NCBI GenBank assembly: GCA_043228905.1
Contig: JBHGNT010000013.1
Location: 7,564,001 to 7,628,000 of the forward strand
Direction: 5' to 3'
DNA: 64,000 nucleotides
Source: Azolla caroliniana
Taxonomy: Eukaryota > Plantae > Polypodiophyta
The translations under genes and the position numbers were made by a program. The notes beneath the pieces are model-generated. The model saw nothing but the letters and a program-made list of their open reading frames with translations. It did not search any database and was not told the DNA's origin. This document shows positions 10,167 to 64,000 of this stretch, one piece after another (within the stretch, counting starts at the first letter, position 1; the number at the start of each line of letters is the position of its first letter).

Positions 10167-13100
10167 TATCTTGATGTTGCGTGTCCAATGGGAGAAATTG
10201 TTAAATAGTGTAATTCCACGCACATGACACAAATGATTATAAATAGTGTAATTATCCTAGGGCCTAGTGCATATAGAGGGGTGCATGCAAGCAAGATTTG
10301 AACCTTGCACCTCCAAGGTAGAAGACATTTATCTTACCATTAGGGCTACAACCATACAAAACTGTGTGCATCAAACCGTGTTCCAAGCCCATGGTTTTGT
10401 GCATGCCACAAGAAAAAACCGTGTGCCCAAAAACCATGGGTCCAAGCCCATGGTTTTGTGCATGTTAGAAGCATGGATAGACCTATAAAAACCCTCGTAA
10501 GGCTTGTGTAAAGGAGGGGCTCAATATGTGAAATCACCACCATCATCATCATCAATAATATAATATTCTTCTTGACATCTATCTTCTTCTAATTTATCTT
10601 CTTCTCAAGTATAAAAATCTTTAATCTTCTCAAGTGTGACATTACTTTCCTCGACTCCTACATACACATCGTCGTCTTTTCGATAAATTCGTGAACGTCC
10701 TCCTTGGTCCATGGCCCCGGTGGTCCAGCTCGAGTGAAGCACGCACGTACGCGAGCATCTTCGCGACATCTTTTGGTGAACTTGACCTGAAGAGCGGCAG
10801 GGGAGGATGAAGATGGACGAGGAATATCTCATGGAGGCAATGTCAAAGATGATAATGGAACTTTCAAGAGAAGGGAAAAGACGAGATATGGCGTAACAAG
10901 CCATCGAGAGCGTGGTCAAGCGAGTCGGCTATTTTAACGGTGCAAAAGTCCAATATATTCTAAAAGTCTACAATGCCGAGATGGATTTGAGAGGTGTGAA
11001 CGAAGCTATGAGGCTGGAGTACTTTTGTCGGGTGGTGGCTGAACCAATCTACAAAGAGGTAGAAGAGCTTCGAGAAGCTCATGATTCGTGGGTGACTTTC
11101 AAGGAGGCTCTATTGAAGGCATATGGCTACGAGAGACCGAAGGGACGAGGTCGGCGTGAGTTCGACCAATGGGTGGCATCAGTGAAGACCCACCAAGGTG
11201 TGACACAAGCATTCCTAGACTTCGAGCGTCTTTTTTCTCAATTTTCGAAGTAGGAACAAAAATTGGTGGGGGTGGATAAGGTCTTGTTGTTCCTGAAGTC
11301 GATCGATCAAAGGGAAAGGATGGCCATTGGACTCAAACTCGAAGAAGATTATGGTGCAAATGGCCTCACCGAGGATTGGAGAAAAGTGGAAAGAGTATGC
11401 CGACTACATGATAAGAGGAAGACGATATTCTCTTTAGCAACAACACAACCCACGAGGGATGGTGAAAGGAGGACAGGATGCGACTACACACAACCACCCA
11501 AAGAAGAAATCTTGAAAATGGAAGGTTCGACGGTACTCGACATAGAGGCATTCGTAAATGAGGCATATGAGAGTTTAAAGGTGCAAGTCAAGGCCAAAGA
11601 GAAGCCTAGAATGGAGCCAAAACCAAGGCAATTGGTGATCAAGGAAGAGGAGACCTCTCGAAAAATGCGAACTAATGATACGGCCAATACGAAGGCCCAG
11701 GTTCGGTACGACAATACCACGGGAGAAGGTGTGAAACAAGCCACCTTCTCGACTTACGGAGGAACGACAGTCAAGAGAAAGGCCAAAGACTCGAGAGCGG
11801 GAAATGTTGGTTTAAGAGTGGACGAGCATTTTGGAACACATGTTGTGTCTGAAATATCAAGTGATGAAGGTGCAAGCATGAGCAAAGCTTGCGTGATCGA
11901 GGGATGTAAAGAGTGTGAGGTCAACATGATCAAGGGGTTAGCCACGAGGAACGACATCGAGTCGCAAATGGCTATGGAAGAGTCCACGGTGGATGACCGT
12001 GTCGAGACTTTCCCAACACTTGATCTAGAGACTTGGGCAGTTGCGTCCGAGAGCCAGCATGAGACCCAAGAGACGGAAAGTGGTGGGGAGGCAAATATTG
12101 AAGAAAATGTGAATAACAACAATGAGCGAAAGATGGCTATGGATGAGAAGACGGTGACCAATGGTGCCGAGGTTCTCCCCACAATTGTTCCTGAGACTTC
12201 GGCAGTTGTGCCCGATTGCCAACGTGAGACCGGAGAGACGAAAGGTGGCGACAAAAAATTGAAGGACCGAAAAGGCGATGAGGACGATGAGATGAATGAC
12301 CACAGACGAAGGGATCCCTCCACATTGGTTTTGGAGACTTCGGCAGTTGTGTCCTAGACCCAACATAAGACCGGAGAGATGGATGGCGGCCGCGAGGAGA
12401 TGAGGATCAAAGCCAGTGCATACGGAGGAATGGTGACCAATAAGGAGGCCAAGAACAAAGCTACAATAAAGTTCTATGAAGAGCTAGAGAGCGGCAAGAA
12501 AGGAAGAACCGGAAGACGACCCAGATGGAAAATGGCACGGTTGGTATTCTGACCTGAACGGGAACTAATCGATCAGGCCCGACCCAACCGAAACCCGGAC
12601 GGAAGTCATTCATCTGAGTCCGATTCGGCCGAATGCAAATTTGGACGAACGCTGACCAAGCGAGAAGTTGATTAGTTGAGACCGATCCAGACAAAAGTTG
12701 AGCCGACCTAGCCATAGGTTGAAGCAGACGAGCCACGACACTCGGTCAAGGCTAGTGAGCATGAGGAAAGGCAAGCATGACACGAGAAAGGCTGATCGGA
12801 GGAAGTTTGATGACAAAGGAGATGGTCTGCATGAAGGTGGCACATGTACAAGGCATGAAGGGTTACGCTCAAGTGGAGCAAAAGGGGCTATGCCAAGTGG
12901 TCATGGCAATGCGAAGGACGAGCGAATGATATGGTTGATCAAGTGGCGATGATGGTTTGGGTGGAAGGAATGCATGTGCTCAAAATGGAGGACAAAGGCC
13001 GACGCAAGCAAGGCGTAAGAAAGAAAGAAATCAAAGGCCAACCACCTTTGATTCCACCACATCACTCTTTTCTTCTTGGCACATGTCAGAGGACGTGCGG

Positions 13101-13538
13101 TTTGGTGGGGGTGGATGTCATGATGTTGTGTGTCCAATGGGAGAAATTGTGAAATAGTGTAGTTCCACACACATTACACAAATGATTATAAATATGAAAA
13201 TTATCGTAGGGCCTAGTGCATATAGAGGGGTGCAAGCAAGATTTAAACCTTGCACCTCCAAGATAGAAGCCATTTATCTTACCATTAGGGCTACTACCAA
13301 GTATTTTAAATGTTATGTATTTCTTTTCATATTCAAAAGGCATAGGAAAACAACCGTCCAAAACCATGTGCACAAAACCATGTTCCAAACCCATGGTTTT
13401 GTGCATGCCACAAGAAAAACCGTGTGCCCAAAAACCATGGGTCCAAGCCCATGGTTTTGTAAATGTTAGAAGCATGGATAGACCTATAAAAACCCTCAAA
13501 AGGCTTGTGTAAAGAGGGGGCTCAATATGTGAAATCAC

Positions 13539-13573
<35 letters not shown>

Positions 13574-13775: not shown

Positions 13776-14664
13776 ACGCATTCTCATTGGGAAGTGTGGC
13801 GATTGCGTTGTCGTGATGTGGCGTGCTCAAAAGTGGGCAAAACCGGCGAAAGGGGGAGGCTAAAAAATGTGAATGTGCAATGTGTGTGCACACAAAAGCG
13901 ATTAGTTGTGCATATTCAAAATAAAAGGGAAAAGAAAGAGTGGAAAGGATGCATAGAAGCCCGTGCAAAAAGTAAGAGAGAAGAGAGATAAAATGTAAAG
14001 AGATAGGCTAAGAATTTATAGAGATAGAATTATATATTATATAAGAGAGAGTTAGTGAGCTAGTGGATAGTCACATTGACTACTAGTTAGAGGTGCACGG
14101 TTTGAATCTAGACTTATAGTGCATCGTGATTTAAGGATTTTTATTCCTTTTTCATTGAAGACAAATTTGGCGACCCCCCCTTCTTTTTTTCCTATAAAAG
14201 GAGGTCGAGGGGGGCTCATTCGAGAGGACGTTTTGGGAGGAGGACACTATCGCCAATTTTCCATCGAAGCTCTTCATCTTCTTATTCACCACTTCTCTTC
14301 ATCTCATACCCCTTCATCCCCCTATCGCCACGTGCTCGTCTTCTTCGCGTCGGCACTCGAAGTTCTCGTGAGCCCAAGCTTCGTTGCTTCGCCACGTTCG
14401 TCGTTGCGAGCCCGTGTGCTCGCCGTTCGGGTGGTTGTGGTTCGTTGGGATTGGCATTTCGGTGGTGCTCATGTGTTCATCTTCGCCGTGTTCGGATTTT
14501 CTTTTGTCTCTAAGGGCATTTAATATTTATGTTTTGATTGAGCTTGTGGTTAACTATAAGTTGCCATTGTAAACAAAACCCTATTTTATAAAGGGTCCTC
14601 TTGCGTTGGAATCAAACACGTATTTATCTCTTTGGTCGATATCATTCGTGTTTCTTTCTCTCCT

Positions 14665-15300
14665 TCTTTCTTTATTCGTGTCTTCCTTGTACGTTTGGCC
14701 GTCTTATGATGAGGGAGCGTTTTGGGCATGCCCATGCACCTCTCCTCCTCATAAAGACGTACGCGCATTTGTGCGTGTGTTTGTGTCTTCCGTGTACGTT
14801 CGGCCGTCTTGTAACGAGGGACCGTTTCAGGCTTGCCCATGCACCTCTCCTCCTCATAAAGGCATACGAGCATTTTGTGCGTGTGTTTGTGTCTTTCTTG
14901 TACGTTCGGCCATCTTGTGACGAGGGGACCGTTCGAGCTTGCCCATGCACCTCTCCTCATAAAGGCGTACGAGCATTTGTGTGTGTGTTTGTGTCTTCCT
15001 TGTACGTCCGGCCGTCTTGTGACGAGGGAGCGTTTTGGGCGTGTCCATGCACCTCTCCTCCTCATAAAGACGTACGAGCATTTGTCTGTGTGTTTGTGTC
15101 TTCCTTGTACGTTCGGCCGTCTTGTGATGAGGGACCGTTTCGGGCTTGCCCATGCACCTCTCCTCCTCATAAAGGCGTACGAGCATTTTGTGCGTGTGTT
15201 TGTGTCTTCCTTGTACGTTCGGTTGTCTCGTGACGAGGGAGCGTTCGGGCTTGCACATGCACCTCTCCTCCTCATAAAGGCGTATGAGCATTCGTGTTTG
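14665..15300. repeat. About 105-bp tandem array (6 units) in the 5' LTR of gypsy C
   Basis: CATGCACCTCTCCTC(CTC)ATAAAG recurs near 14733, 14838, 14944, 15046, 15151 and 15257. Confidence 0.95.
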
Positions 15301-15606
15301 TGTTATCGTCCCCTTGTGTGTTCATGTTGCGTGCCCATCTTGCTTGTACCCGTTTAGTCACTTGGCTCGTGCAGTGATCTGGAAAGGTCGACGAGTCGTG
15401 ATCAACGAGAGCCACCGGCTTCACAAAACAAAGGGCAACGAAACCTTGCTCGGGAAAGGGTCGGGAAGTAGTATTGTCGTAAACCAAACCTCAGGTCTTC
15501 TCTATCCCTTGAGTACTCCCTAGTCCAAGACCCCCGTGGTCCCGCCCAAGTAACACACGTGCGCGAAACTTCGCGACATAAATTGGTGAACCCGATGTGA
15601 ACCAAG

Positions 15607-17744
15607 ATGCGAGGAGGAGAACTCGTTGAAGCGATGGCGGCTGCGGTGGACCGCTTGGTAAATGCCCGAGAAGGCATCACCGGCCTAGACCGGGCCATAG
15701 AGACGGTGGTCAGCACAACGGGTCGGTTCAATGGAAGAGATATCACGAGCTACTTGGATGCCTATAAGGCCGAAATGCTTATGCGAAACGTCCCTGAAGA
15801 TAGGCGGCTAACTGGATTCGCTAGTGTGGTAACGCCGAGTATCCACGTAGAGGTACTCGAGATACAAGCGGATTGTTGCAATTGGGTGGAGTTCGAAGAA
15901 AGACTCCTCGAGAAGTATGGCCTTGATGACTCACTCAGAATTTCGAAAAGGGATCTAATGGAGTGGGTTGAGCTTCCCGGCAAGGGGAGAAATACTATGG
16001 TACTTTTACAAGAATTTCAGAAGCGCTTCGCGCGACTCTTGGCTCTCGATAGGATGGTGCTTGACACAAGCAAGGTTCTACTATTCATAAAGACTGTTGT
16101 TGCACGAGACCGAGAGAAGGTGGGGTCCCTCCTCGAAACTGATGATGGGCTCACGACGGATTGGGCTATGGTAAAACGGGTTTGTAGCTGCTTCGATAAG
16201 AGAAGGGAATGGAACGACTGGTCTCCGTTGAGCGGCCAAACATCCACAGGCTCCATTAGTGAGACACATGAACCCAAGGGTGGTAGAATACCTCAAGAAA
16301 GAGAGCAAGCAAATGCAAGGTTCGTCCCAGAGAGAAACGTGGTTGAAGCACTGTCGGGAGGGTCAGCAATAGACGAGCTCACAAAGATGGTGCGAGATCT
16401 CCAAATAGCGCAAGCTAGGAGAGAGAGTGGTGGCCCTCAAGATCGACGTCCCCCGTTCACGCAAAGATGTATGTGGTGCGACAACCCCGACCACCTACGA
16501 AGGGAGTGTGGAGACTTTCAAGAGGCCCTAAGAAAGGATATTGTCTATCTTTGGAACAATAGGGTCTATTCGATGGAGACAAGGCGCCCCTTGGGATTGA
16601 ATCAAGGCCGAGGGGGCATGAGAAGGCTAATGGAGGAGGCCGAAGCACGACATGTTGAAGCCGTCCACTACTCGGCGTCAGCTAGGATCCGAGTGGGGAA
16701 AGAGGTGAGGAGCCAAGAGGAGAAAGAGTTTGACTTTTGGTTGTCAATCCTTGGAAGCCTCTCTAAGTGGAAGTTCAAAAGAGAAGAAGTAGACGAAGCG
16801 GAAAAAAGGGTCCAAGAAGCAACCGGGTGGAAGGATCTGGTGGAAGAAAAGACAGGCTTAGTGGAAGCTGCTTGCCAAAACTACGAAGTAATGGTAGAAG
16901 AGAAGAAGGTAGGAAATGACGAGGGAGCCGGTCCATCAAGGAAATATGACGCTCGAGGTGCACAAAGAAGGGAAGAGCAGAACCAATCTCAAGCACGCGA
17001 CGAAAGATGGAAAGAGAAGGGGAACGCCCCCAACTTCAAGCTTTGCTCAGAGATCGAACAAGCAACGGACTTGAAGAAGGTAGTGGAGGAGAGGATCCTC
17101 GATAGTCACGTAGAGTTTACTCTGCGAGAGGTCCTCGGAATTGCCAAGAAAGAATTCCATGAGGTCATCATCGACCTAATGAAGAGGAATCGGCTCTCGA
17201 TGAAGCAAGAAGTGGCAAAGCCCGCGATTGTAAATGCATTGTCAATTGAGGTTCCCGAGGAAGACGGAGACTAAGTGGACAGTCACTACACGAGGCCGCA
17301 TTGGGCGAGAGCGACAACGGAGACACCGGTACGGGTCGGAGATGTAAAAGAGCCGGTTGTAGCATTGATCGACCATGGCTCTGAGATCAACCTTATGTCC
17401 ATGGACTTTTATAAAAAGGGAAAGTGGTCGATCAACACGAAGCACGGGTGGAAGATTAGAGCGGCGACTCGAGCAACCGAGGAGCTATACGGGGCTTGCC
17501 AGAATGTACGTGTGAAGGTGGGGGACGTAGAAATAGATCAACATTTCTTTGTTCAAGAGACGTCCTCGCACCCGATCATCTTGGGTGAACCATACATCAT
17601 GGCGGCTCGCATGGAGACGAAGGTGCTAGATATGCGAGGGTCAAGAGCCAAGATGGGAAGCATTCAGTCCAATTCCTTACGGTGAGGCTCAACCATGAGC
17701 GCAATCGAGCCTCCCTCAAAGGGGATAGCCGAGAGGATTTTTGA
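15607..17744 (+). pseudogene. Gypsy C Gag-protease
   Basis: 555-aa ORF with a CMWCDNPDHLRREC zinc knuckle. In-frame stop at 17272, then protease VALIDHGSEINLMS. The tail ends in EDF* at 17744. Confidence 0.88.
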
Positions 17745-20700
17745 TTCGGGCTATTAAAGAGTGGGGCCGCAATAGCCCGAGGCAAACTAAGACCCTAAAC
17801 CCTTGTAAAACTATTAAATGTAATAGGAAACAATTTTGGTTCTCCGAAAATGGAGCTTGTAAAATTACTAGTTTAAGTGATAGAGATAAGTCTAGGGCCA
17901 AGAGATACGAAAGGTATCTCAAACAATGTAATTTATTGGGGGAAGATGACACCATAAGCGGCGCCATGGAGGCGGTCTCGTTCGACGACACTCTCAGAGA
18001 GATAGAGAGGGTAGTCGTTTCGGGCCTCAATGAAGACAAGGTAATTCCAGTCAACTCAGTTGACATGTACACCGCCATCGAAGAGCTTGGGCGGTTGATT
18101 GAGGAAACGAGGACGGTCAAGGTGCAAACAAAGTACAAGACTGTGGACAAGAAGGTGAAGCTTGTGGCTGCCCCATTGCCTAACGATAGTTGGGATCGGA
18201 TAAAGGGGGTAGCGGTTGATCCTAGCTTGCGGGACCCACGAGGCATAGGGCACCGGTTCACTGACGAGACGCGACAGAAGTTCCGGATTGGTGGGGGTGG
18301 CTTCCTATTGCCTAGGGAGGAGGAAAGATTTAGAAGGATGATCGAAAGCCACGGAAGGGATTTCGCCTTCTCGTCGGGTGAGATAGGGTGTGTAAACCCT
18401 AAGATCGTGGAGCCAATGGTGATCTTTACGGTGCCGCATGTACCGTGGAACATCAAGCCAATCCCCGTTCCGAGAGCGCACATCCCGAAGTTGATTGAGC
18501 TACTCAAGGAAAAGATCGAGATGGGTATCCTCGAGCCATCAAGCGCCCCATACTCGAATCGGTGGTTCACTATGCCAAAGAAGAACGGCACATTACGCTT
18601 CATCCAAGACCTACAACCTGTTAATCAAGTGACAATTCGAAATGCCGCGGTCGGACCGAGTGTTGACGAATTCGCCAAGGCCTTCGCTGGAAGGTCTATT
18701 TATTCGATCGGTGATCTATACTCGGGGTATGATCAATTCCAACTAACTATGGAGAGTAGGGACATCACAATGATGCGGACCCCTATCGGCCTAGTGTGAA
18801 TGTGTACCTTGCCACAAGGAGGCACTAACTCTGTAGCCCACATGGTAAATGCAATGAACAAGGTATTGAGAGATTGCATCCCCGACATCACCATGTCGTT
18901 CCTCGATGACATCCCCATAAAAGGGTGCTCTGAAGCGGAGAAAGATGAAACCTTGGACGAGGATGGGTGCAGATGTTCTGTGTCATATCACATCTCCGAT
19001 TGTGAGAAGGTTCTACAAAGACTCGAAGATGCACGCTTGACCTTCTCGGGTGAGAAATCGGCATTCGGCCAACCGGAGATCCTTGTGGTGAGACACTTGT
19101 GCGGGGCATACGAACGGAAGCCATCCCCGGCAAAGGTGGACGCCATCACAGACATGAGGGAAGAATGTAAATCGCAAACAGAGGTGAGGCGATTTCTTGG
19201 TGCCTGTGCATTCTACCACATCTGGATCCCGCACTATGCTCACCTAACCGAGCCCTTGTATGGGCTACTCAAGAAGGGGCGGAAGTTCAAGTGGGAGGAA
19301 GAGCACACAGAGGCAATGAAGAGGCTCAAAGGAATGTTGGTAGCAGCACCAGCTTTACGAAAAGCCGTATACAAGGAAGGGGTGCCCATCTACGTGACGG
19401 TAGATACGAGTCCAACAGGGATCGGATGGGTCATAAACCAAGAAGGAGAGGATGGTACACGCTACGCCATCCGGTTCGTAGCCAAGGTCTTAAGAGACCG
19501 ACAACAAGGATACGCCCAAGTAAAACGTGAGCTTTGGGGTATTGTGTCCGTAGTAAAGGCAGATAAAGATTACCTAATCAGGTCAGAGGTGGTAATAAAG
19601 ATGGATTGCCTTCCAATCCTAGGGATGGTTTCGGGATGTGCAACACCTGACCTAGCTATGCTAAGGTGGATTGCTTACATAATATCAATGAACCCGGAGA
19701 TTCACCACATTTCAGGGAAGAACAATGCCCTGGCAAATATGCTATCGAGGGCAAGATTCGAGGACGAAAGTGACATGGTGTCTGAAGATCAGGATGCCGC
19801 TCTTGACTTCTTTAAGATGGCCCAAGCGTCTATAGATGATCGAGATGTGCGAGTACTCCACGCCTTCAACGAAAGTGAATACAAAGGGGAGTGGCTACAC
19901 ATTGGCAAGTTCTTAAGCTCAATGACGGTGGATAGTTCATGGTCGAAGCAAGAAGCACAGAGAGTCCGAAAGAAAGTGTACAAGTACTTCCTAAGAGGGG
20001 GATTCCTCTGGAGGCACCCGAAGAGAAGGACGGGGACGCCACAACGAGTGGTCATAAAGGAAGAAGACCAGACAACATTGGTATCTTAGTTCCACGAGAG
20101 TCCTTGGGCGGGCCATAGAGGAATGTGGGCAACATTTGAGAAGTTAAAGGAGAAGTATTGGTGGCCGAGAATGTACAAGGATGTCGCCCATTTCGTGGGG
20201 ACGTGTGAAAGCTGCTAGATACACTCCAACATACGCCATAGGTACGAGTTGCACCCCACCTACCCACTCACCATACACTTCAAATGGATGGTGGATTTGG
20301 TTTCGATGCCGATGGGAGTGGGCCAAGTGAAATATTTGGTGCTAGCAAGAGAAGACCTAACAAACCAAGTAGAAGGGCGAGCCTTAGCAAACAAAATGAC
20401 GGCGGGGGTGTGTAAATTCTTACTCAAGGATGTCATTTGCCGGTATGGATGTGTGGGAAAGATAGTGGCCGACAGAGGAGAGCTGAACGCTCACGAAGCT
20501 ATAGAGCTCTTTGACCGACTTGGAGTGAAGCTCTCTCTCACGACCGCTTATAACCCGGAGGCTAATGGAAAGATAGAACGAGGACATGAGCCTATCGTAA
20601 AAACCATTGTACAAGCTTTTGATGGGTGAGTCGGGAATTGGCCTCGGTTACTACCTTATGCCTTGTGGGCCGATAGAACAACTCATAACTCAGTTACAGG

Positions 20701-25631: not shown

Positions 25632-25705
<74 letters not shown>

Positions 25706-38985: not shown

Positions 38986-39020
<35 letters not shown>

Positions 39021-52671: not shown

Positions 52672-54084
52672 TTAGCGTCCTCGTGGGCCCGCCCAACTTT
52701 GTCTTCCACTTCGAGCAAGACCACCCTGTCCCACGAACCACCGCCGCCTTCTGGTCCACCATCCTCGCCGAATGGTCTCGAACCGTTGGCGCCATCCGAT
52801 CCGCCACACTCGACGATGTTCGCCGAGTCGTTGCCTGCACCCCATCCTCCACGTCCACCGTGGGTCCTTGAACCACTGACTACATCCGACCCGCCGTATC
52901 TGATGCCCGTGCTTTCCTCCCCGTTCGGTCCTCCCGAACCCCGTCGCCGACCCGACTGCTCTTCCTTTGTCCGCCTCGTATATCCCCCGGATGCGCTCCC
53001 GGTCGCATGCCGGATTCCGCCCTTTGCGTGCCGCACACCTCGGCGTGCCGATTCTCTCCGCTCCGCGCTCGCCTTCCGTAGGCTTTCCCCATTGTTCGCC
53101 GTGCTCTCTCGCGGTAGAGCGTACTGTCATCCCGACCTCCGTGTTGGTGTCCCTCGAGGCTCTCGTTACCGCTTCGCCTTGACTTGCGCCCTCTTGGCTT
53201 GCTTGGCCTTGCATGCCCTCCGGGAAGCCGCGCTTCCTCTTCTCGGCGCGTAGCCCGTTGCTCTCCGCGCACCTTCTTCGGTTCTCAAGACACGACTCTC
53301 CACTCATGCCGATCGCGCTCGGCCCATGTCGTCGGTTTTGGTGTTTCGCCGCGTCGTCCTTCATCTCACGCTTGCCTCTCGAAGGCTTGACCCGACCGTC
53401 ATCGTCAGTCAATCGTTGTTGCCCATCCGCTGTATGCATGCTTGTGTCTTGGCCCTCCACCGGCCGTATTGCATGCGTCTCATGTCGCGCTTCCGCCGTA
53501 GACCCGACCTCCGCGTCGGACTCCAACTCCTCGCCACCACCCACTGTTTCTTCATTCTCCTTTCGATCCGCGACCGCCAATGCCTCACGGGTAGGTGTGG
53601 AGGGTTCCTCCCACTCTCGGTCCACCACTGAGTCCTCGCCTCTCAAAGGCTCAATCGGTCCACCGTTTCCGGTCACTCGTTGACGCTCTCTCGGATGCAT
53701 GCTCGTTCTTGGGCCCTTCACCGACCGTAATGCATGCTTCGTGTTACGCCCTTCATCCGCCGTAGACCCGACCTCCACGTCGGCCACTTCTTCCTTTGTC
53801 ACCGTAGCCCGTTCCGACCCGGGCTCGCCATCTTGGACCCGCTCGTCCATCATCTCATACCGGATACCCGCTCCGATAACTTTGTCCGCTTCGGCCTCCG
53901 ACTCCTCGCCGCCACTCGCCGTCTCTCCGGTCTCACGTTGATCCGCAACCGCCGAAGTCTCTAGAATGGGTGTGGAAGGTCCCTCTCGCTCTCGGTCTTC
54001 TAGCAAGCCGTGATCATCGTGCCCACTAGGCCTCCTCAATACGCTCACCGGCTCGCGTCGCGTGTTGTGACCCGTCCTCCCCAA
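52672..54084 (-). CDS. Second low-complexity acidic ORF of element E
   Basis: Contains PSTPILETSAVADQRETGET repeats shared with elements B and F. Confidence 0.45.
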   Translation of the reverse strand: MGRTGHNTRREPVSVLRRPSGHDDHGLLEDREREGPSTPILETSAVADQRETGETASGGEESEAEADKVIGAGIRYEMMDERVQDGEPGSERATVTKEEVADVEVGSTADEGRNTKHALRSVKGPRTSMHPRERQRVTGNGGPIEPLRGEDSVVDREWEEPSTPTREALAVADRKENEETVGGGEELESDAEVGSTAEARHETHAIRPVEGQDTSMHTADGQQRLTDDDGRVKPSRGKREMKDDAAKHQNRRHGPSAIGMSGESCLENRRRCAESNGLRAEKRKRGFPEGMQGQASQEGASQGEAVTRASRDTNTEVGMTVRSTAREHGEQWGKPTEGERGAERIGTPRCAARKGRNPACDRERIRGIYEADKGRAVGSATGFGRTERGGKHGHQIRRVGCSQWFKDPRWTWRMGCRQRLGEHRRVWRIGWRQRFETIRRGWWTRRRRWFVGQGGLARSGRQSWAGPRGR

Positions 54085-54147
54085 TCTCCAATCATGCCGA
54101 CTTAGCCTTCGCCTGGATCGGCCTCGGCCGATCGAGTTCCGGTTTGG

Positions 54148-56211
54148 TCAGCTCCCTTCCGTAATCGTAACTGGCCGGTACATGTTTGTCCGCGCAAATC
54201 CGGCCTTGCCGGTTCTTCTTCGGTTTGGGCCCGGTTGACCGGACCCCGCTTCACTCTTCTTCCGCTCCGCCTCCCGGCCGGGTCGGATTACCGACTGGCT
54301 TATCTTTCGGTCGGGTCGGTTCCCGACTCGATCCTCGATGCCGCTCCGGGCCTCTCCTTCGGTCTTTTCGCACGTGCCCACTCCGGGCCTCTCATCCTCA
54401 CGGCCACCGCCCATCTCCCCGGTCTTATGTTCGCGCTCGGGCGCAACCGCCGAAGTCTCTGGCCCCGGTGTCGAGGGATCTCGCCTCCATCCGCTACAAA
54501 CATCCTCTTCGTCATTTTGGTTGCCCGCCTTGCCGCCGCCACCGTCCGTCTCTCTAGGTCTCACACCGGCTCTCGGGCCGGTTGCCGGAGTCTCTAGGAC
54601 CGGTGTGTGGAAGGTCGCGGCACCGCCGCTCGTCTCCTCTTCTTCCTCGATTTCGCAAGCCTCGAGTATGCTCGCGAAATCCTCGTAGAACTTTTCGGGC
54701 AACCGCATTCCGAAACTTTCGCCCACTCTTGAAGTGGCGTCCATTGCTCCGTAGATATCGGCCTCATCCATGGCCGTCCTCTTTCCACAAGTCGAGAGGG
54801 TCGCTCGCTCTGCACCCTCTCCCACATCGTCGCCATGGTCGCCCGCCTTGCCGCCGCCACCGTTCGTTACCCTAGGTCTCTTGAACTGGTGCGTGTAAGG
54901 TAGCAACGCTGGGGTCTCTTGAACCGGTGCGTGTAAGGTAGCAACACCGCCGCTCGTCGATGCTATGCCCGTAGCCACCTCCATTCGGACATCGTCGTTC
55001 GTGGCTACCCCGCCTCCGTTTATGCAAGCATCAATTATGCTTGCCGCCTCCTCTTCCACGGTCTCCTTACCGTTGTCTCGGTTGCCCGCCTTGCCGCCGC
55101 CACCGCCCGTCGCTCTAGGTCTCACGCCGGCAATCGGGCCGACCGCCGGTGCCTCTAGGGCCGGTGTGTGTAAGGTCGCGGCACCGCCGCTTGTCTCCTC
55201 CTCACTCGATGTTTCGGGCCGCCATGTCCCGAATCCGTAGTTATCGGCCTCCATGGCCGTCCATTCGCCGCAAGACGAGAGAGTCGCTCTTTCCGCACCC
55301 TCTCCCATGTCACCATCGTGGTCGCCCGCCTTGCCGCCACCACCGCCCATCACTCTAGGTCTCACACCGGCTCTCGGGCCGGTTGCCGGAGTCTCTAGGC
55401 CCGGTGTGCGTAAGGTCCCGGCACCACCGCCCGTCTTCTCCCCGCTCAATGTTTCGGGCCTCCATGCCCGAACTCCCTCATGTCCGCTCGAACCGGCGAT
55501 CGCCGCCTCACCGTCCTCGACCTTGTCCTCAGTCGATCTTTCTCCGCATGTCGAGAGGGTGGCTCGCTCCGCACCCTCTCCTGTGGTACCAATGTACCAT
55601 TCTCTTTCGGCCTCCTCACCCTCCGATTCGCTCGGCCCCGACTCCGCAATAAGCCCTTCTTCGGCTTCGATTTGTGCCTCTACGATCTCGTACGCTTCCC
55701 GCACCAAGGCTTCGATGTCGAGCTCCTCCGAACCGATTTGCGTTGAGCTCTCTTCCGGCGTTAGTGCGTAGTCGGTCGCCGCTCTCTCTTCTCCACCGCT
55801 CGCGGGCCGCGTTGTGGCCGACCGCCTCTCATCGCATTGTATGCACGCCCATTCCACCTCGTTCCAATCTTCGGTGAGGCCGTATGCCCCTTCTTCGTCT
55901 TCGAGGTAGGGAAAAATGGCCATTCTCCCCCTTTCGTTGACCGACTTCAAGAATAGTGGGACCTTGTCCGTCCCCACCGATTCTTGATCCCAGACCGAAA
56001 GTTGGGAAAACCGGAGATCGAACTCCCGGAATGCCTTCATTGCGCTTCGAGGAGCCTTTGCCGATGACACCCATAGATCGAACTCGCGTCGATCGTACTT
56101 GTACGACTCTTCCCGTCTTCCTCTCCTTCTTGCGAAATCCCTTGCCATTCTCGTAATTACTTCCGCGATGTCTCTGGCTTCCATCTCCTTCCTCCCTTGC
56201 CGCCTCTTCAC
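54148..56211 (-). CDS. Partial Gag fused to Gly/Glu/Thr-rich repeats (687-aa open frame)
   Basis: RREFDLWV...DKVPLFLKSV...GLTEDW Gag segment followed by 4-5 TPxLETPAxGPRAGVRPRxxGGGGGKAG repeats. Confidence 0.7.
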   Translation of the reverse strand: MKRRQGRKEMEARDIAEVITRMARDFARRRGRREESYKYDRREFDLWVSSAKAPRSAMKAFREFDLRFSQLSVWDQESVGTDKVPLFLKSVNERGRMAIFPYLEDEEGAYGLTEDWNEVEWACIQCDERRSATTRPASGGEERAATDYALTPEESSTQIGSEELDIEALVREAYEIVEAQIEAEEGLIAESGPSESEGEEAEREWYIGTTGEGAERATLSTCGERSTEDKVEDGEAAIAGSSGHEGVRAWRPETLSGEKTGGGAGTLRTPGLETPATGPRAGVRPRVMGGGGGKAGDHDGDMGEGAERATLSSCGEWTAMEADNYGFGTWRPETSSEEETSGGAATLHTPALEAPAVGPIAGVRPRATGGGGGKAGNRDNGKETVEEEAASIIDACINGGGVATNDDVRMEVATGIASTSGGVATLHAPVQETPALLPYTHQFKRPRVTNGGGGKAGDHGDDVGEGAERATLSTCGKRTAMDEADIYGAMDATSRVGESFGMRLPEKFYEDFASILEACEIEEEEETSGGAATFHTPVLETPATGPRAGVRPRETDGGGGKAGNQNDEEDVCSGWRRDPSTPGPETSAVAPEREHKTGEMGGGREDERPGVGTCEKTEGEARSGIEDRVGNRPDRKISQSVIRPGREAERKKSEAGSGQPGPNRRRTGKAGFARTNMYRPVTITEGS

Positions 56212-58837
56212 GTTGGGTTCACCAAATATGTCGCGTTGCTACTCGCGTGCGTGGAGAAGGGCGGGACCACGGGGGTCTTGGACTAAGAAGTAGAGGAGAA
56301 GGAATCGGACACAGAATGGAAGCTTTGCTCAAGAAGAAGAAGAATGAACAAGAGATTAACTCGAACAAGAGGAAGATGGAGACGAGATGATCAACAAGAT
56401 ATGTTAAAACGAAATGAACGATTACAAAATGGTGGCCGCGTAGGCCGCACCAAATGACTACTCGAAACCCTAATCGACGAAGATGAAGATAAAGATCACG
56501 AAACCCTAACCCTAACCCTAACGCTCGACCTATGTGGTATACCTCGCACACTCAAAATAGGCAACCCTCAGAATGGTGTCTTCCCTCTCCTTTTATAGCA
56601 CAAGGAGGGAAGACCGTTTACAAAACGAGACTAAAATATCCCCTTTCATTCAAAGGGGATATTTGCCTTGATTTAGGGGAGGGTGAGATTGATGGCCCCC
56701 TTAACTCCCACCTCCTCACAAACAACTAGGTACCTATGTACCGCATAGTACCTCTCTCTCTCTCTCTCGCGTGGATGTGCGCACAAGACCACATCGCCTT
56801 ATACCTTAGGGATCTTATGGGGCATTTCTAGCACCATACCCTTTACCCTTATTATTATTACAAATACATTATGTACGTGTGCAACGTTGCACATCGCTCT
56901 TTGGCTCTCGTTGCTCGGGTTTCCACTTGTGGACGAAAATTTTCACGACAACGTAAACCGGAGTGTCCGGCTTGTATACTGCTTTCCGAAGAGCCGGAGC
57001 CGCTCCCAGGAATCTTCAGACTTCTGTGATCGACTTGCATTCCTCCTTAATCCCGGAGATGGCCTCTACCTTCGCTGGAGACGGTTTCCGGCCGTATGGT
57101 CCACACAGGTGCCCTACTACTAGGATCTCGGATTGTCCGAAAGACGACTTCTCCTCAGAGAAGGTAATCCGAGTGCCCTCAAGCCTCTGCAATATCCTCT
57201 TGCAGTCGGAGATGTGGTCCGCGACAAACTTCCGACATCCGTCCAGCCCGATCGAGTCATCCTTCGCTCCCTCCGGACATCCCCTGATGGGGATGTCTTC
57301 CAAGAATGGCATGGTGATGTCTGGTATGCAGTCCTACAAAACCTTGTTCATTTTGTTCACCATGTGTGCCACTGAATTGGTCTCTCCTTGTGGTAGGGTA
57401 CACATCTGCTTTAGGCTGAGAGGGGTTTGCATCGTCGTGATATCCCTGCTCTCCACGGCTATCTGGAATTGGTCATACCCCGAGTATAAATCCCCGACCA
57501 AGTAGATTGACCTTCCCTTGAAGGCCTCCTCAAACTCGTCAATTGTCGGCCCGATTCGTACATTTCGAATGGTGACCTTGTTGATCAGTTGCAGGTCCTG
57601 GATGAAGCCCAGTGTGCCATTCTTCTTCGGCATCGTAAACCACTGATTCGAATATGGGGCACTTGACAACTCGAGGATGCCAATCTCCATCGGCTTTGGG
57701 ATGTGAGCCCTTGGCACCAGAATTGGTTTGAGACTCCACGACACATGGACTACCGTGAAGGTCACCATTGGTTCAACGATAGTCGGGTCTACGCAAACGA
57801 TCTCCCCCGACGAAAATGTAAAGGCTTTCCCGTGCGTTTCGAACATCCTCCGAAACTGGACCTCCCTTGCGGGCAGTAGGAAGCCACACCCACTGATCTT
57901 GAGCTTCCGCAACATCTCATTAGTGAACCAATGTCCTATGCCGGCCGGATCTCGTAAACTCGGGTCCGTCACGACCCCTTTCATTCATTCCCAGCTGTCC
58001 TCCGACAAGAGAGTTGCTTGGCCTTAACTTCCAGTCCATAGTCTTGTACTTGGTGTCAACTCGGGCCGTTTGATCCAACCCGAACATCCTCCCAAAATCC
58101 GCGATGACTTTGTACATCTCCACCGAATTGACCGGAATCATCTAGTCTTCGCACAGATCCTCTTCGGCTACCCTCGCGATTTCTCCAAGGGTGTTGTCGA
58201 ATGAGACCGCCTCAACGACCCCACCAATCTCGTCACCGGGGCCCAAGGCACCGCATGCCCTCAAGTGTCCTTCGACCTGCCTCTTTTCCCGGCCGCTAAT
58301 GCCGATTATGGAACAAACTCCATTAATGGAGGGCCAAAATATCCTACCTATGGTACATGGGGTTTCTTCCGGTTGTTCGAACTATCGCGACCCGACGCCT
58401 TGATCTCGACATCCCCGACCTTCAGGCATGCCCCGTGTAGCTCCTCCGTGGCGCGGGTCGCCGTGTGTATTGTCCACCCATGCTTGGTGTTGATTGGCCA
58501 TTTACCTTTCTTGTAGAAGTCCATGGATATCAGGTTAATTTCAGACCCATGGTCGATCAAAGCCACCACTGGTTCATTTACGTTCCCGATTCGAACTGGT
58601 GTCTCCGTTGTCGCTCTCGCCCAATGCGGCTTCATATAGTGGCTGGCCGAGAACTCATCTTCCGTGACCGCCTCGTCGATGTGTGCTGCTCTCAACTCTA
58701 CGGGCTTCTCTAGCTCAGGCTCTGTCGCGAGCCACTTTTCACTTCCCTCAATGACAACTCTACTTTGCTATCAAGGATCCGCTCCTCCAAGACCTTCTGC
58801 AGGTCTGTTGCTCTCTCTATCTCAGAGCTCAACTAGA

Positions 58838-59132
58838 TGTCATGATATGGCAAGATTCGAACCCATGACCTTTTGTTACATGGGTCAAGCCCTTGCCATT
58901 AGACTATACATTGTAATACGAAGGATATTATTTTAATTTATTATTTCACTATAGAAATTGATGTATATTCCAAATTTCTCTAGAACATTCTAGAAACTTC
59001 AGGAGTACTCTTGAAAACACTATCTAAGGAGGCACAAGACATTATTTCGAACCAAATTGGTTCAACGCTAGTCTTAAGCCTCCTAGCTACTACTGTATAT
59101 TCTCTTCACATAATATATATCTTTTGTTATCA

Positions 59133-59172
<40 letters not shown>
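58838..59172 (+). mobile_element. Truncated LTR of the 21693-22136 family
   Basis: TGTCATGATATGGCAAGATTCGAACCCATGACC..., reverse-complement homologue of ~21830-22136. Confidence 0.85.
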
Positions 59173-59174
<2 letters not shown>

Positions 59175-60490
59175 TGAAAACACACAATTATATTAATAAA
59201 TGTGTGTAAAAAACACTACTTACAATTGGTGTGACAATGGAGTATGGTCACCCATTAACTACACTACACGGGTAGTGGAACCTGTTGAATTGCAAATAGG
59301 CAAGACGAACACTCCACTGAGGAAAGAATTTCCACTTGCTCCAATAAAGAAAATTGCCACATTAGTACTCCCTTCAATTTTCGTAGATATACTTTCACTC
59401 CATGTCTACCGTCGAATACAAAAGCGTTGCGCATATTCCAATTATGACGCAATCCCCAATATCTCAGAAATAGAAAAACGATCTCCATCTCTGATTTTGG
59501 GTCAACCTGTGTAAATTGTGCAAACACCCACTGTCTAGGTGTCAAATAACACCGTTGTAAAACTTGCCAAATTTGAGAAATGTAACTCCAAATCTGACAA
59601 GCAATCGGACATTGTATAAATCGATGAGTACTATCTTCCATTTGAACAGTGCAAAAGAAAAAATTACCCATTGATAATCCACGACGCTTTAGAGCTAATC
59701 CCAAAGGCAATCCTCCAATCAAAACTCTCCATATGAAGACCTTTGCTACAAGTGGCAATTTAGAATGCCAACTACGTTGTAAGATCTGCCACCACCCATG
59801 ATCAGATTTGTGTAATCTCCATTCTTCTTCAGCCTTAGATGATAACCATCCAAGAGACTCAACAGAGCAATGATACAAAAGATTAGTAGTCACTTGTAAC
59901 AATGACGTTGTCGTGCCTTTCGGCGTCAGATCGTTTGCGTGAGTCGGGTTGAAACCGCTGGGGTTTTGGACAAGGAAGAGGAGAGTTTTAAGGCTAATAA
60001 GAATATAAATATGTTGTAAGAAAGAGTTATAGCAAACTCGTGAATCCCACGAGTGTATTGTATTAGATTAATCAATATGAATATAAGAATATAAATTTGG
60101 GTTGAAAGAGAATGATATAGAATCCTCGTGAATCCCACGAGTATAGTTTATTAATTGGTGTTTTTTAGAAACATATCCAGTTTCCAAGTATTTCACACAC
60201 CTTTTACATTGTGCTCCTCATCCTTATATAGAGATGAGAGAGTCTTTTCCAACCCATGCGTTTCTCTAACTATAGACTCCATGCTTTTTCTATAGATAGA
60301 CCATATGCTTTATCTAAAGTGATCATGCTTTTTCTAACTTGTGCGTTTTTTATAAACTATAGTGTTCATACACGCTAGATATGCATGCACAGCTTTTTCT
60401 TTTAGCATGCGTTTTTTTCTTTTAACTAAAGTTTATCGTACGTGAACTTAACTTTCTATGTGGGACATCTACCTTTTAACACTAATGAAA

Positions 60491-60552
60491 TGCTAGTGTA
60501 ATGGTAAGACATTACATTATTAACATGGAGGTGCAAGGTTCGAATCTTGCCC
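60491..60552 (+). promoter_or_regulatory. tRNA-like Pol III A-box/B-box module within an LTR
   Basis: TAGTGTAATGGTAAG...GGTTCGAATC with a GCAAG/CTTGC stem. Homologues occur in other LTRs. Confidence 0.6.
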
Positions 60553-61184
60553 TATGCATGTTATATATATTTTAATATTTTCTACTATTTATTCATATTT
60601 ATTAAATCGGTACTTTATAAGTTTTTCATGTAGTGTACGAAATACACGACGACACTCGCCCCCTCCGAACTCGCACATCCTCCGGTATGTGCCGAAGTTG
60701 TCGGTGATTGTTAGTCTCGTCCGTTCGTTCTCCGCATGGTTGGTTTCGTCGTCGGTCATTTTTGGTTGCCGGCCCCGTTCGGTCTCCGGATTTTAGTTGC
60801 CGACTCCGCCTGGTTTCCGGTTCAGTTCGGTTGCCGGCTCTGTCCGGTCTCCGATTACCAGCCCTCGTAATTCTTCATTACTTGTTGTACCCTTTGTTTC
60901 TCTCGCTATGTCAGCTTTGTCTCTCCATTTTGAGCACATCCATTCTTTCAACCCGAACCATTGTCGACATCCGATCCACCATAGTCTTCGTTCATTCTTT
61001 GCATTGCCATGAGTGGTTGTCATGGTCCCTTGTGGTCCTCTTGAGCATCTCGGTGTGCTGTCTCTCTCTGCTCCGCGCTTGTCTTCCGTAGGTTCTACCC
61101 ACGCGTCGATGTCGACCTTTGAATATGCGCTCGTTGTTAGCTCCTTGTGTGGCTTTAATGTATGCTTTATTTCTCGTTGTTGCA

Positions 61185-61345
61185 CATGCGTCGTATTACG
61201 CCGTAGCGCATGCTTCGTATTCCATCGTAGTGCATGTGTTGTATTACGCCGTAGTGCATGCTTTGTATTCCATTGTAGCGCGTGCTTCTTTTTACGCCGT
61301 AGCACATGCTTCTTTTTGCGCCGTATTACGTGCTTCTCTCGGCGT
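61185..61345. repeat. 24-bp minisatellite (~6 units) inside element F
   Basis: CGTAGyGCATGCTTyGTATTmCry-like units, translating as HALRRNTT/HALRWNTK. Confidence 0.75.
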
Positions 61346-64000
61346 AGACCCGACCTTTGCGTTGTCGTGCTTTTGTTTACATCGGAATTTCAGACGGATC
61401 ATCTTCCATCCGAACCGACTTCTGACTTTATCTTCCTTGCCGCCACCTCCTGTCTCTCCGGTCTCACGTTGGTTCTCGGACACAACCACCGAAGTCTCTA
61501 GAATTAGTGGGTAGGAATCCTCGGTATTATCATCCTCCGTTGTTTCACCCATAGCCATCTTCTCGGCTATCTCTCTATCGTACGCATCGGCTTCGACCTT
61601 TGTTTTCTCTTCGCCACCTTCCGTCTCTTCGGTCTCACGTTGCCTTTCGAACGCAACCGCCAGAGTCTTTGGAATCAATGGTGGGGAAGTCTCGATATGA
61701 CCATCCGCTATTGATTCGTCCATAGCCACCTTCGATTCGATGTCATCTTTCGTGGCGACCTCCTCAATCAGGTCCTCCTTGCTCTCTTTCACTGCATCAA
61801 TTATGCAAACATAAATTATGCTTACCCCTTTTTCACCCGATGTTTCCGACACTTGTATTCCGAAATCTTCTTCTACACTTGGGTTATCGATCTTATCCTT
61901 TGCCGTCGTTCTTTCGCAAGACAAGAGGGTGGTTTGTTTTACACCCTCTTCCGTCACACCATCATGTTGTATTTCGGTCTTCAATCGACCATCCTTCATC
62001 GGCCATGTCGTTGACAAGATTCTCATCTTCCTCTCATCATGTCTCCGGCATACCCTTTTGACTTTGGCCCAATCCTCGGTAAGACTGTTCGCACCGTCAT
62101 AATCTTCGAGCTCGATCCCGATGTCCATCCTTTCTTTCCGATCAATCAATCTTACGAACATTAGGACTTTATCCTCCTCCACCAATCTTTGTTCCCGCTC
62201 CGAGAGTCGAGCAAAACGATGCTCGAACTCTCGGAATGCTTGTGTTGCACTTCAGTGGGTCTTCTCCGATGCCACCCATTCGTCGAATTCTCGCCGATCT
62301 TGTCCCTTCGATCTCTTGTAATCATATGCCTCTCGTAAAGCTTCTTTGAATGGCCCCCATGTCAAGTTTTGTTGCCGTATCTTATGGATTCTCTCTTGTA
62401 GCTCATCCGTGGCAATCCGATTGAAGGATGTCACTTGCAATCCTTCCGGTATCCCACATCGCATCATCTCCGCCTTGTAGTCACGTAGATAGCGTGAGAC
62501 ATCGTTTCCGTTGAATTGTCCGTTTCGTTGTACGAGCCACTTTACTGCCGCCGTGATCTCAGACATCGCTCGTTGTTCTTGTAGCATCCGCTCGAACATC
62601 ATCACCATTGTTATGCTCATCGCCTCTTGTTGATTCTCCATCTCCTTGCCACCGGCCTTCACGTCGGGTTCACCACTTGTGTCGTGCCTTTCGGCGTCAG
62701 ATCGTTTGCGTGAGTCGGGTGGAAAACGCTGGGGTTTTGGACTAGGAAGAGGAGAGTTTTAAGGCTAATAAGAATATAAATATGTTGTAAGAAAGAGTTA
62801 TAGCAAACTCGTGAATCCCACGAGTGTATTGTATTAGATTAATCAATATGAATATAAGAATATAAATTTGGGTTGAAAGAGAATGATATAGAATCCTCGT
62901 GAATCCCACGAGTATAGTTTATTAATTGGTGTTTTTTAGAAACATATCCAGTTTCCAAGTATTTCACACACCTTTTACATTGTGCTCCTCATCCTTATAT
63001 AGAGATGAGAGAGTCTTTTCCAACCCATGCGTTTTGTCTAACTATAGACTCCATGCTTTTTCTATAGATAGACTATATGCTTTATCTAAAGTGATCATGC
63101 TTTTTCTAACTTGTGCATTTTTTATAAACTATAGCGTTCATACACGCTAGATATGCATGCACAACTTTTTCTTTTAGCATGCGTTTTTTTCTTTTAACTA
63201 AAGTTTATCCTATGTGAACTTAACTTTCTATGTGGGACATCTACTTTTTAACACTAATGAAATGCTAGTGTAATGGTAAGACATTACATTATTAATATGG
63301 ACGTGCAAGGTTTGAATCTTGCCCTATGCATGTTATATATATTTTAATATTTTCTACTATTTATTCATATTTATTAAATCGGTACTTTATAAGTTTTTCA
63401 CGTAGTGTACGAAATACACTACGACAACGTTTGATCCGTTGGACACCAATCAAGCCACGGTTGTTCTCCTTTTTTTAGAGGTAAGGGACCTTGCATCAAT
63501 GCAATATTTTTACTCATTTTAACATGGCTCTACAAAACTCCTATGCTCAAATAACATCAGGAAACATGAGCAATATCGGCAATGAAGAAATCCAAGTCCT
63601 GTTGACAACAGCTAATATATTATGAAAGATAAGTACAAGTGGTTGAGAGGCATAAACACTTTGGAAGAAAGACGAAATATATCAATTCATTTCTCAATCA
63701 TCAAAATTAATAGTGAACTCCAAGTGGATGTTTTTCAGTTTTCTGGTACAATGTATTGATAGGGTGACTTTCAAGCATTAAATAGAGAGACCTCCCCTAA
63801 TATGTGCTCATGAACCTCTTGGGGGACCTTGTAGACAGTGTTGTATCCCTTAACCTTGTGCTTTGCTTGAGTCATATTGAATTTGATCGCAAGAATGGCA
63901 TCAACGTAGATTATTGCGATGGGTGCTTCTTTTAGTAATGCATATGTGTTCTTGCACTGCGGCAACTTTGCATAATAGTTTCCATACACAACAGACTCAC

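What the first reader, a model, noticed from the sequence alone, without database searches (positions are those of the whole stretch)
10291..63323. tRNA-like Pol III promoter modules carried inside the LTRs of four different families
Seen: A-box/B-box pairs at tRNA spacing occur in both LTRs of three elements. B has TAGCCCTAATGGTAAG...GGTTCAAATC (10291-10348 and 13235-13293, minus). C has TAGTGAGCTAGTGG...GGTTTGAATC (14051-14115 and 21541-21606, plus). F has TAGTGTAATGGTAAG...GGTTCGAATC (60491-60552 and 63261-63323). The solo-LTR family also has one (22064-22130 and 58845-58910: TAGTCTAATGGCAAG...GGTCATGGGTTCGAATC). B, C and F share GAGGTGCA(A/C)GGTT(C/T)(G/A)AATC although their LTRs are otherwise unalike. 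Orientation is antisense to the element in B and F and sense in C. Known: Cassandra TRIMs carry 5S-derived Pol III promoters in their LTRs, and TFIIIC-bound tDNAs act as chromatin barriers. Inference: these LTRs co-opted a tRNA- or SINE-derived module as a Pol III promoter or anti-silencing insulator.
Basis: partly seen in the sequence, partly recalled or inferred. Interest (0 to 1): 0.85.

Follow-up and report, generated by a model that had tools for sequence, protein, structure and literature searches.

The report
tRNA promoter boxes inside Gypsy LTRs
Several families of plant jumping genes, protein-coding ones included, carry in their end repeats a short tRNA-gene-like piece that keeps only the letters a known tRNA-gene transcription factor (TFIIIC) grips, so it likely serves as a docking site that would shield or tune the element's own promoter, although binding is untested.

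Summary
Real. Eight tRNA-gene-like A-box/B-box modules lie in LTRs of four families and take 8 of the top 9 places in an independent tRNA-profile scan. Thirteen metagenome loci add up to four more LTR families. Across eight families the A-box core, tRNA positions 44-48 and the B box are 87-95% identical, spacer and flanks 31-33%; spacing is fixed and the cloverleaf is gone. This matches published TFIIIC contacts. The hosts are mostly Phygy-like Gypsy elements of a seed-free plant, autonomous ones included. The module lies upstream of the LTR TATA motif, points away from the element in seven of eight families, and is usually followed by a T-run, so it cannot make the genomic RNA as proposed for Helenus or shown for Cassandra. 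Best reading (0.5): a selected TFIIIC/Pol III site acting on the LTR's own Pol II promoter. Against: the key base C56 is T in 9 of 19 copies, family C shows no extra conservation, related families lack it, and nothing on binding or RNA exists. New variant of the Helenus kind. The scan noted similar LTR-borne boxes earlier in other genomes (unreviewed notes).

The parts
10279..10354 (-). tRNA-like module (tRNA positions 1-77) in the 5' LTR of element B, antisense to the element
   Evidence: (23.3 bits)
13224..13299 (-). module in the 3' LTR of B (T at position 56)
   Evidence: (18.0 bits)
14049..14124 (+). module in the 5' LTR of element C, sense; T-run 28 nt after the B box; TATA-like motif at 14192
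   Evidence: (19.6 bits)
21541..21616 (+). module in the 3' LTR of C
   Evidence: (20.8 bits)
22061..22136 (+). module in solo LTR S1, antisense to that LTR; position 77 is the LTR's terminal base
   Evidence: (24.6 bits)
58838..58913 (-). module in LTR S2, antisense, flush with the LTR start
   Evidence: (23.2 bits)
60487..60562 (+). module in the 3' LTR of element F, antisense; T-run 22 nt after the B box
   Evidence: Rfam tRNA 13.4 bits, model 8-63; 25.8 bits
63259..63334 (+). module in the 5' LTR of F (T at position 56)
   Evidence: 18.4 bits
10174..13696 (+). element B: gag-only Gypsy derivative, LTRs about 10174-10678 and 13117-13696 (92% identical), polypurine tract present, primer site not found, ends worn
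13809..23426 (+). element C: gag-pol Gypsy, LTRs 13809-15578 and 21302-23426 (U3 part 98% identical), 4-bp NCGN target duplication, primer site and polypurine tract
21693..22136 (-). solo LTR S1, 444 bp, 5-bp target duplication, inserted at the TATA-like motif of C's 3' LTR
58838..59171 (+). LTR S2 (86% identical to S1), cut off at its CT run by LINE-like sequence
59909..63426 (-). element F: gag-only Gypsy derivative, LTRs 62680-63426 and 59909-60654 (98% identical), 4-bp NCGN target duplication, primer site and polypurine tract
51854..56950 (-). element E: related gag-only element whose LTRs lack the module (negative case)
49051..49994 (-). 3' LTR of gag-pol element D', close relative of C, lacking the module (negative case)

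Best explanation
Several LTR-retrotransposon families carry, upstream of the TATA-like motif in their LTRs, a tRNA-gene-like module that keeps the A-box core, positions 44-48 and the B box at fixed spacing but not the cloverleaf, and it likely works as a DNA docking site for TFIIIC (and a short Pol III unit) that would shield or tune the element's own Pol II promoter. Shown: the module, its place in both LTRs, its orientation, the conservation pattern and the lost fold. Inferred: (1) origin from a tRNA gene or tRNA-SINE head, captured long ago and copied between LTRs as part of U3; (2) selection on the TFIIIC-contact bases, because everything between and around them has drifted to chance identity; (3) TFIIIC, with TFIIIB and Pol III on copies with intact boxes, sits about 70-255 bp upstream of the TATA motif, between the flank and the core promoter, and makes at most a roughly 85-nt RNA that stops at the next T-run; (4) the benefit is a chromatin barrier or open-chromatin patch at the LTR promoter, as tRNA genes and B boxes give in yeasts. 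The sign of the effect (protecting or damping) is not known. The module cannot be the promoter of the genomic RNA.
For: Ungapped identity over 28 pairs of 8 family representatives: A-box core 0.87, positions 44-48 0.95, B box 0.91, against spacer 0.33, positions 49-51 0.36, flanks 0.31; for the 4 window families, which no pattern of mine selected: 0.80, 0.90, 0.91 against 0.26, 0.39, 0.25-0.28. The yeast TFIIIC structure contacts the B box and the 44-47 stretch, the A box matters for TFIIIB/Pol III recruitment more than for binding, and the tRNA gene in that structure has T at position 62 as all modules do (PMC11724288). Spacer of 20 nt in 12 of 13 LTR-type metagenome loci although 17-24 was allowed. 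Cloverleaf pairing 50.0% against 50.9% in shuffles. Contigs of 4 public runs laid on F's U3 pile up on the T-arm/B box 15- to 39-fold above two flank bins in three runs and more in the fourth, higher than on the LTR terminus; loose ends of contigs that fit only downstream still carry an A box in exact register in three different spacer types. Variant rows: 4 in 68 module bases against 27 in 120 flanking bases (p=0.004; 40 of 67 rows visible). Both orientations occur, which suits a DNA site. Present next to an integrase gene in L020 and in gag-pol element C. One contig of a more distant organism shows a B box in register in C's relative.
Against: Position 56, the most contacted base pair, is T in 9 of 19 copies, in 26-30% of laid depth for F-type LTRs and in about 35-50% for C. 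In F-type copies T56 occurs 4 of 7 times and A57 0 of 7, so plain CpG decay does not explain it all and some subfamilies seem to have spread with a damaged box. In family C the module is no better conserved than its flanks (10 rows in 65 bases against 12 in 130, p=0.23; 40 of 73 rows visible) and laid depth dips there. The 5' half of the A box is weak (0.43-0.50) and B-type boxes have an extra base. Related elements E and D' lack the module, so it is dispensable; D' groups with C (100/99) apart from L020. TFIIIC tolerates many spacings, so fixed spacing is not required by this model. Four of the eight family representatives were found by a pattern that demands the boxes. No binding, chromatin or RNA data.
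Confidence: 0.5

Rival explanations
1. The product matters: Pol III makes a short (about 75-90 nt) RNA from the module, antisense to the 3' end of the genomic RNA in most families, which regulates, packages with or decoys silencing away from the element.
For: The A box, which serves Pol III recruitment more than TFIIIC binding, is kept; a T-run follows at +22 to +28 in F, C and the families of L011, L012 and L020, giving tRNA-sized units of 83-89 nt; F and S modules fold well (z -4.35 and -3.79).
Against: No fold is shared: cloverleaf at shuffle level; B z=0.24, L020 z=-0.88; in S no terminator lies inside the element and one B copy has none within 1.3 kb; F, L011 and L020 are related, and T-runs are common in these AT-rich flanks.
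Confidence: 0.15
2. Passive relic: tRNA-SINE heads landed in U3 once or several times and ride along without a function; the boxes look conserved because SINE heads share them.
For: Patchy presence and both orientations; frequent T56; no excess conservation in family C; two unrelated SINE-like repeats match the same pattern (L016, L019).
Against: No SINE body, A-tail or convincing target duplication (longest flanking repeat 5-6 nt); no common empty allele in F (joints across it are single contigs of depth 63 or less); in related LTRs (F, L011, L020; B, F) the module is one of the few or the only alignable island while its spacer has drifted; no free plant SINE among 15 metagenome loci.
Confidence: 0.15
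3. RNA-level element: a hairpin in U3, or an antisense tRNA relic that anneals to the primer tRNA to help strand transfer, as described for HIV-1 U3-R.
For: Antisense in 7 of 8 families; a 7-pair hairpin around positions 55-58 pairs in 87.5% of cells and would tolerate both T56 and A57 in its loop; a 7-pair helix joining the A-box core to the B-box end pairs in 92.9%.
Against: No covariation: 0 double changes for the hairpin (500 of 500 shuffles as high), 1 for the long helix (61 of 500). The wobble pairs would not hold on the element's own strand. The module matches the primer implied by the primer-binding site at only 5-7 of 18 positions. C has it in sense.
Confidence: 0.1
5. TRIMp3-type promoter: Pol III starts in the 5' LTR module and makes the genomic RNA, as in Cassandra and as proposed for Helenus.
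For: Module in both LTRs; sense orientation in C.
Against: Antisense in 7 of 8 families; C is 9.6 kb, coding, with a T-run 28 nt after the B box and a TATA-like motif downstream.
Confidence: 0.03

Closest known systems
Helenus / TRIMp3 (Kojima 2024, PMC10886601; read parts 1-5 of 6 of the text; supplement searched with five terms only)
   Same: tRNA-like sequence in both LTRs, boxes A and B kept, tRNA function lost, origin from a tRNA or SINE2 head proposed.
   Different: Helenus are non-coding TRIMs of 311-1263 bp; the screen kept only elements under 1000 bp although 'not a few LTRs' had tRNA-like parts; the only plant family is from Selaginella and its printed LTR has the module in sense; the paper expects autonomous partners not to share it. 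Here the module is in gag-only and gag-pol Gypsy elements of 3.5-9.6 kb, mostly antisense and upstream of a TATA motif.
Cassandra (as described in PMC10886601; original paper not read)
   Same: Pol III gene fragment inside plant LTRs.
   Different: 5S-derived, sense, non-coding, and drives the element's RNA; none of that applies here.
tDNA, ETC and B-box chromatin boundaries in yeasts (PMC4228148 passages; PMC7474672 abstract and opening)
   Same: TFIIIC-type boxes next to a Pol II promoter or at a domain edge, acting without a useful RNA.
   Different: Those are fixed host loci with binding data; here the site is mobile, keeps an A box, and binding is untested. In PMC7474672 the B-box boundaries favour heterochromatin inside the domain, so the sign of the effect can differ.
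tRNA-Lys3-gene-like sequence in HIV-1 U3-R (seen only as a passage and a reference title in PMC6468702)
   Same: tRNA relic in the upstream LTR, complementary to tRNA on the genomic RNA.
   Different: There it matches the primer tRNA; here the module does not match the primer implied by the primer site, and one family has it in sense.
Phygy non-chromovirus Gypsy clade (Neumann 2019, PMC6317226, passages)
   Same: Short elements, polyprotein fills the interior, NCGN target preference (C, E, F).
   Different: No tRNA-like LTR module appears in the passages seen; family S has a 5-bp non-NCGN duplication and so likely another integrase.

Membership tests
Helenus / TRIMp3 | tRNA-derived sequence with boxes A and B in both LTRs | tested here: met
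Helenus / TRIMp3 | TRIM: non-coding, about 300-1300 bp | tested here: not met
   B and F about 3.5 kb with gag, C 9.6 kb with gag-pol; the interior of S was not seen
Helenus / TRIMp3 | module placed to transcribe the genomic RNA (sense, no early terminator) | tested here: not met
   antisense in 7 of 8 families; T-run at +28 in C
Helenus / TRIMp3 | Pol III transcription | not testable with these tools
   no RNA holder listed
tRNA gene | cloverleaf fold and covariance-model score | tested here: not met
   ARAGORN 0 genes; Rfam no tRNA hit in the whole window, 13.4 bits on F alone, none on S; pairing at shuffle level
tRNA-derived SINE insertion | body, tail and target duplication around the head | tested here: not met
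   no A-run of 8, longest flanking repeat 5-6 nt in 8 of 8 copies
tRNA-derived SINE insertion | free copies outside LTRs in the host genome | tested here: inconclusive
   none in the window or among 13 plant-type loci; no whole genome available
Phygy (hosts C, E, F, B) | 4-bp NCGN target duplication | tested here: met
   3 of 3 elements with clear ends (C, E, F); B ends worn
Phygy (hosts C, E, F, B) | Gypsy domain order, no chromodomain, polyprotein fills the interior | tested here: met
   pol match 17744-21238 ends about 60 bp before the 3' LTR; listed domains of the closest protein P0001 hold no chromodomain
Phygy (hosts C, E, F, B) | placement with reference Phygy sequences in an RT tree | not testable with these tools
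   no reference set on hand; named relatives are from Riccia and Adiantum at 37-63% identity
TFIIIC-bound boundary (tDNA / ETC type) | B box with TFIIIC-contact bases | tested here: inconclusive
   intact in 10 of 19 copies, T56 in 9
TFIIIC-bound boundary (tDNA / ETC type) | TFIIIC occupancy and barrier activity | not testable with these tools
   needs ChIP and reporter assays

The most novel reading that the evidence does not exclude
Protein-coding Gypsy retrotransposons of a seed-free plant, and a second LTR lineage with a different target duplication, carry a portable tRNA-gene cassette in U3 as a built-in TFIIIC insulator against silencing; it moves between LTR lineages, can flip, and seeds the host genome with very many mobile TFIIIC sites.
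Probability: 0.3. Interest if true: 0.85.

Novelty: new variant of a known kind. Interest (0 to 1): 0.62.

Why it matters
Pol III gene pieces in LTRs are described only for tiny non-coding elements, where they are taken to be the promoter. Here they sit in coding elements, face away from the element and keep just the TFIIIC-contact bases. If TFIIIC binds, this is a cis-encoded way for plant retrotransposons to handle silencing and a large mobile source of TFIIIC sites in a plant genome. Sister families with and without the module (C against D', B and F against E) and C56 against T56 copies give ready-made controls for asking whether tDNA barriers work in plants.

Tried and rejected
No whole genome is held for this window, so copy-level statistics rest on 8 window copies, 13 metagenome loci and contigs of 4 of 22 listed runs. 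No RNA holder listed. Viral contigs: a T-arm pattern gave 7 phage loci, tRNA genes or tRNA-like; a looser pattern gave 1 locus in a viral tRNA cluster; no relative of the pol protein. Prokaryotic genomes: 0 matches. Rfam and ARAGORN do not call the modules. Functional tRNA, conserved hairpin and primer-annealing ideas were tested and not supported. The tRNA type of origin could not be assigned. The interior and superfamily of family S were not found: neither L015/L022 nor the visible loose ends show a primer site. LTR boundaries of L011/L018 were not resolved; the LTR nature of L017 rests only on a CA end 12 nt after the B box. L016 and L019 were left out of the family alignment: no similarity to the window, 90% alike to each other over 157 nt. 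Look-ups of earlier findings by sequence and relatives were empty. Summed contig depth is no copy number and was used only to compare segments.
Full report
Setting. The window is a nest of Copia and Gypsy elements. The named relatives of element C's pol are from a liverwort and a fern, the closest ones unnamed, so the host is a seed-free land plant; a moss is likely from the Phygy-like features below (inference). No whole genome is held.

Observation. All eight modules exist. ARAGORN finds no tRNA gene and Rfam gives F only 13.4 bits against a cut-off of 29, S nothing. A position profile made from 17 of the 27 tRNA genes of an unrelated phage locus ranks the eight modules 1-4 and 6-9 among 128,000 positions, at 18.0-25.8 bits; shuffled windows reach 16.9 on average and 20.7 at most in 20 trials. 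All eight lie in LTRs. The LTRs of E, D' and the Copia elements have no hit above about 12 bits.

Hosts. C (13809-23426, plus) is a gag-pol Gypsy; F (59909-63426, minus) and B (about 10174-13696, plus) are gag-only relatives. C, E and F have 4-bp NCGN target duplications and the same primer site, the target preference that PMC6317226 gives for Phygy (passages). S1 is a 444-bp solo LTR with a 5-bp duplication, so S likely belongs to another lineage. In each window family the module lies between the LTR start and a TATA-like motif, about 70 to 255 bp upstream of it (in S2 the motif is worn); that this is U3 is inferred. It faces away from the element in B, F and S and along it in C. In S the tRNA-like unit ends flush with the LTR end: position 77 is the terminal base in both copies.

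More families. One metagenome scan with a pattern allowing 17-24 nt between the boxes gave 15 loci: 5 of family F, 1 of B, 2 of S (one locus twice), 1 diverged B relative (L012), 2 of a family sharing TATA and U5 motifs with F (L011, L018; one locus twice), 1 LTR directly behind an integrase gene and polypurine tract (L020), 1 probable LTR end (L017), and 2 unrelated SINE-like repeats (L016, L019). The spacer is 20 nt in 12 of the 13 LTR-type loci. The same pattern had 0 matches in the prokaryotic genomes. In an integrase tree of 48 rows, C (module in sense) groups with D' (no module) at 100/99, apart from L020 (antisense). So presence is patchy: old capture with losses and an inversion, or exchange of LTR segments.

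What is conserved. With one copy for each of 8 families in fixed register, identity is 0.87 in the A-box core, 0.95 at positions 44-48 and 0.91 in the B box, but 0.33 in the anticodon-arm spacer, 0.36 at 49-51 and 0.31 in both flanks; the four window families alone give the same picture. The first half of the A box is weak (0.43). The cloverleaf is not kept (50.0% paired against 50.9% shuffled), and two other helices show no covariation. The kept positions match TFIIIC contacts in yeast: B box, the 44-47 stretch, and a T at 62 in the gene used for the structure (PMC11724288, passages and section 26).

Evidence not chosen by my pattern. Contigs of 4 of 22 listed runs (three organism labels) were laid on F's U3. 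Summed depth peaks on the T-arm and B box (for example 628,154 against 41,182 and 40,799 in flank bins of run X1; 222,577 against 5,645 and 9,104 in X3), above the LTR terminus. Loose ends of contigs that fit only on the B-box side carry an A box in exact register with three other spacers. Of the 40 variant rows shown (of 67), 4 fall in the 68-base module and 27 in the 120 flanking bases (p=0.004). Joints across the module are single low-depth contigs, so no common empty allele was seen. Family C behaves differently: no peak, a dip at the B box, 10 rows in 65 bases against 12 in 130 (p=0.23; 40 of 73 rows shown), none of them in the A box; most depth has C56 (50-65% in three runs), and one contig of the most distant organism has a B box in register.

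Against function. C56 is T in 9 of 19 copies. Single-LTR changes in B and F show decay after insertion, but T56 in 4 of 7 F copies with A57 in none, and T56 in deep contigs such as L020, suggest that some subfamilies spread with a damaged box. E and D' do without the module.

Mechanism. The module cannot drive the genomic RNA: wrong direction in 7 of 8 families and a T-run 22-28 nt after the B box in F, C, L011, L012 and L020. It does not match the primer implied by the primer site (5-7 of 18). A DNA site that works in either direction next to the Pol II promoter fits best. Pol III complexes in yeast act as barriers and insulators, position nucleosomes and can also repress nearby Pol II promoters (PMC4228148, passages; PMC7474672, abstract). 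I put a selected TFIIIC site acting on the LTR promoter at 0.5, a functional short RNA at 0.15, a passive relic at 0.15, an RNA structure at 0.1. That the module is tRNA-derived and was under selection between families I put at about 0.8.

Known and new. Helenus (PMC10886601; parts 1-5 of 6 read; supplement searched with five terms) is the closest case: tRNA-like LTRs, but non-coding TRIMs, with one plant family from Selaginella and no entry for the three bryophyte names searched. The author notes other LTRs with tRNA-like parts and did not study them, so coding cases may lie in Repbase or in supplement parts that I did not read. Seven searches listed no paper on such modules in coding plant LTR elements; the library lacks most subscription papers. 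PMC13570524 (passages) only cites Cassandra and Helenus. Unreviewed notes of this scan describe tRNA-type boxes in chromovirus LTRs of a fungus-like genome; I did not test them. Verdict: real, a new variant of the small-RNA-gene-in-LTR kind, function inferred; interest 0.62.

Noticed in passing
window 22061-22136 and 58838-58913; L017 98-160: In family S the tRNA-like unit ends exactly at the LTR terminus (terminal CA at tRNA positions 76-77; at 73-74 in L017), as if the LTR's outer end came from a tRNA 3' end.
   Followed up: partly
window 21693-22136: Solo LTR S1 inserted right into the TATA-like motif of C's 3' LTR, about 75 nt downstream of C's module.
   Followed up: partly
window 14675-15304 and 22625-23152: C's LTRs hold an array of about 105-bp tandem units downstream of the TATA-like motif; the unit number differs between the two LTRs.
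   Followed up: no
window 60035-60145; L011 8260-8280; L020 1770-1860: A near-palindromic motif recurs in the U5 part of F, L011 and L020 LTRs and is one of the few conserved islands there.
   Followed up: no
window 60300-60329: A second depth peak in F's U3 over short repeated motifs 70-100 bp upstream of the TATA-like motif; B has similar repeated motifs. Possible transcription-factor sites.
   Followed up: no
window 10169-13696, 51854-56950, 59909-63426: Three distinct gag-only non-autonomous families (B, E, F) with related gag genes and long low-complexity C-terminal parts.
   Followed up: partly
window 10350-10360 against 13295-13360: B's 5' LTR lacks about 57 bp present in the 3' LTR and in L009, right upstream of the module.
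   Followed up: no
L016 1-155, L019 1093-1248: Two copies of an unrelated tRNA-headed repeat with a shared 3' body, SINE-like; by recall it resembles animal SINEs (not tested).
   Followed up: partly
L001, L003-L006 (match site), L002: Phage contigs with a tRNA-like element that ARAGORN does not call, with a long insert between the boxes in L001 and L003-L006.
   Followed up: no
window 41162-41632: Protein-kinase exon of a host gene amid the retrotransposon nest.
   Followed up: no
window 48459-48573 and 48900-49014: 115-bp inverted repeat (90%) next to the 3' LTR of D'; the region also resembles L012 1793-1961.
   Followed up: no
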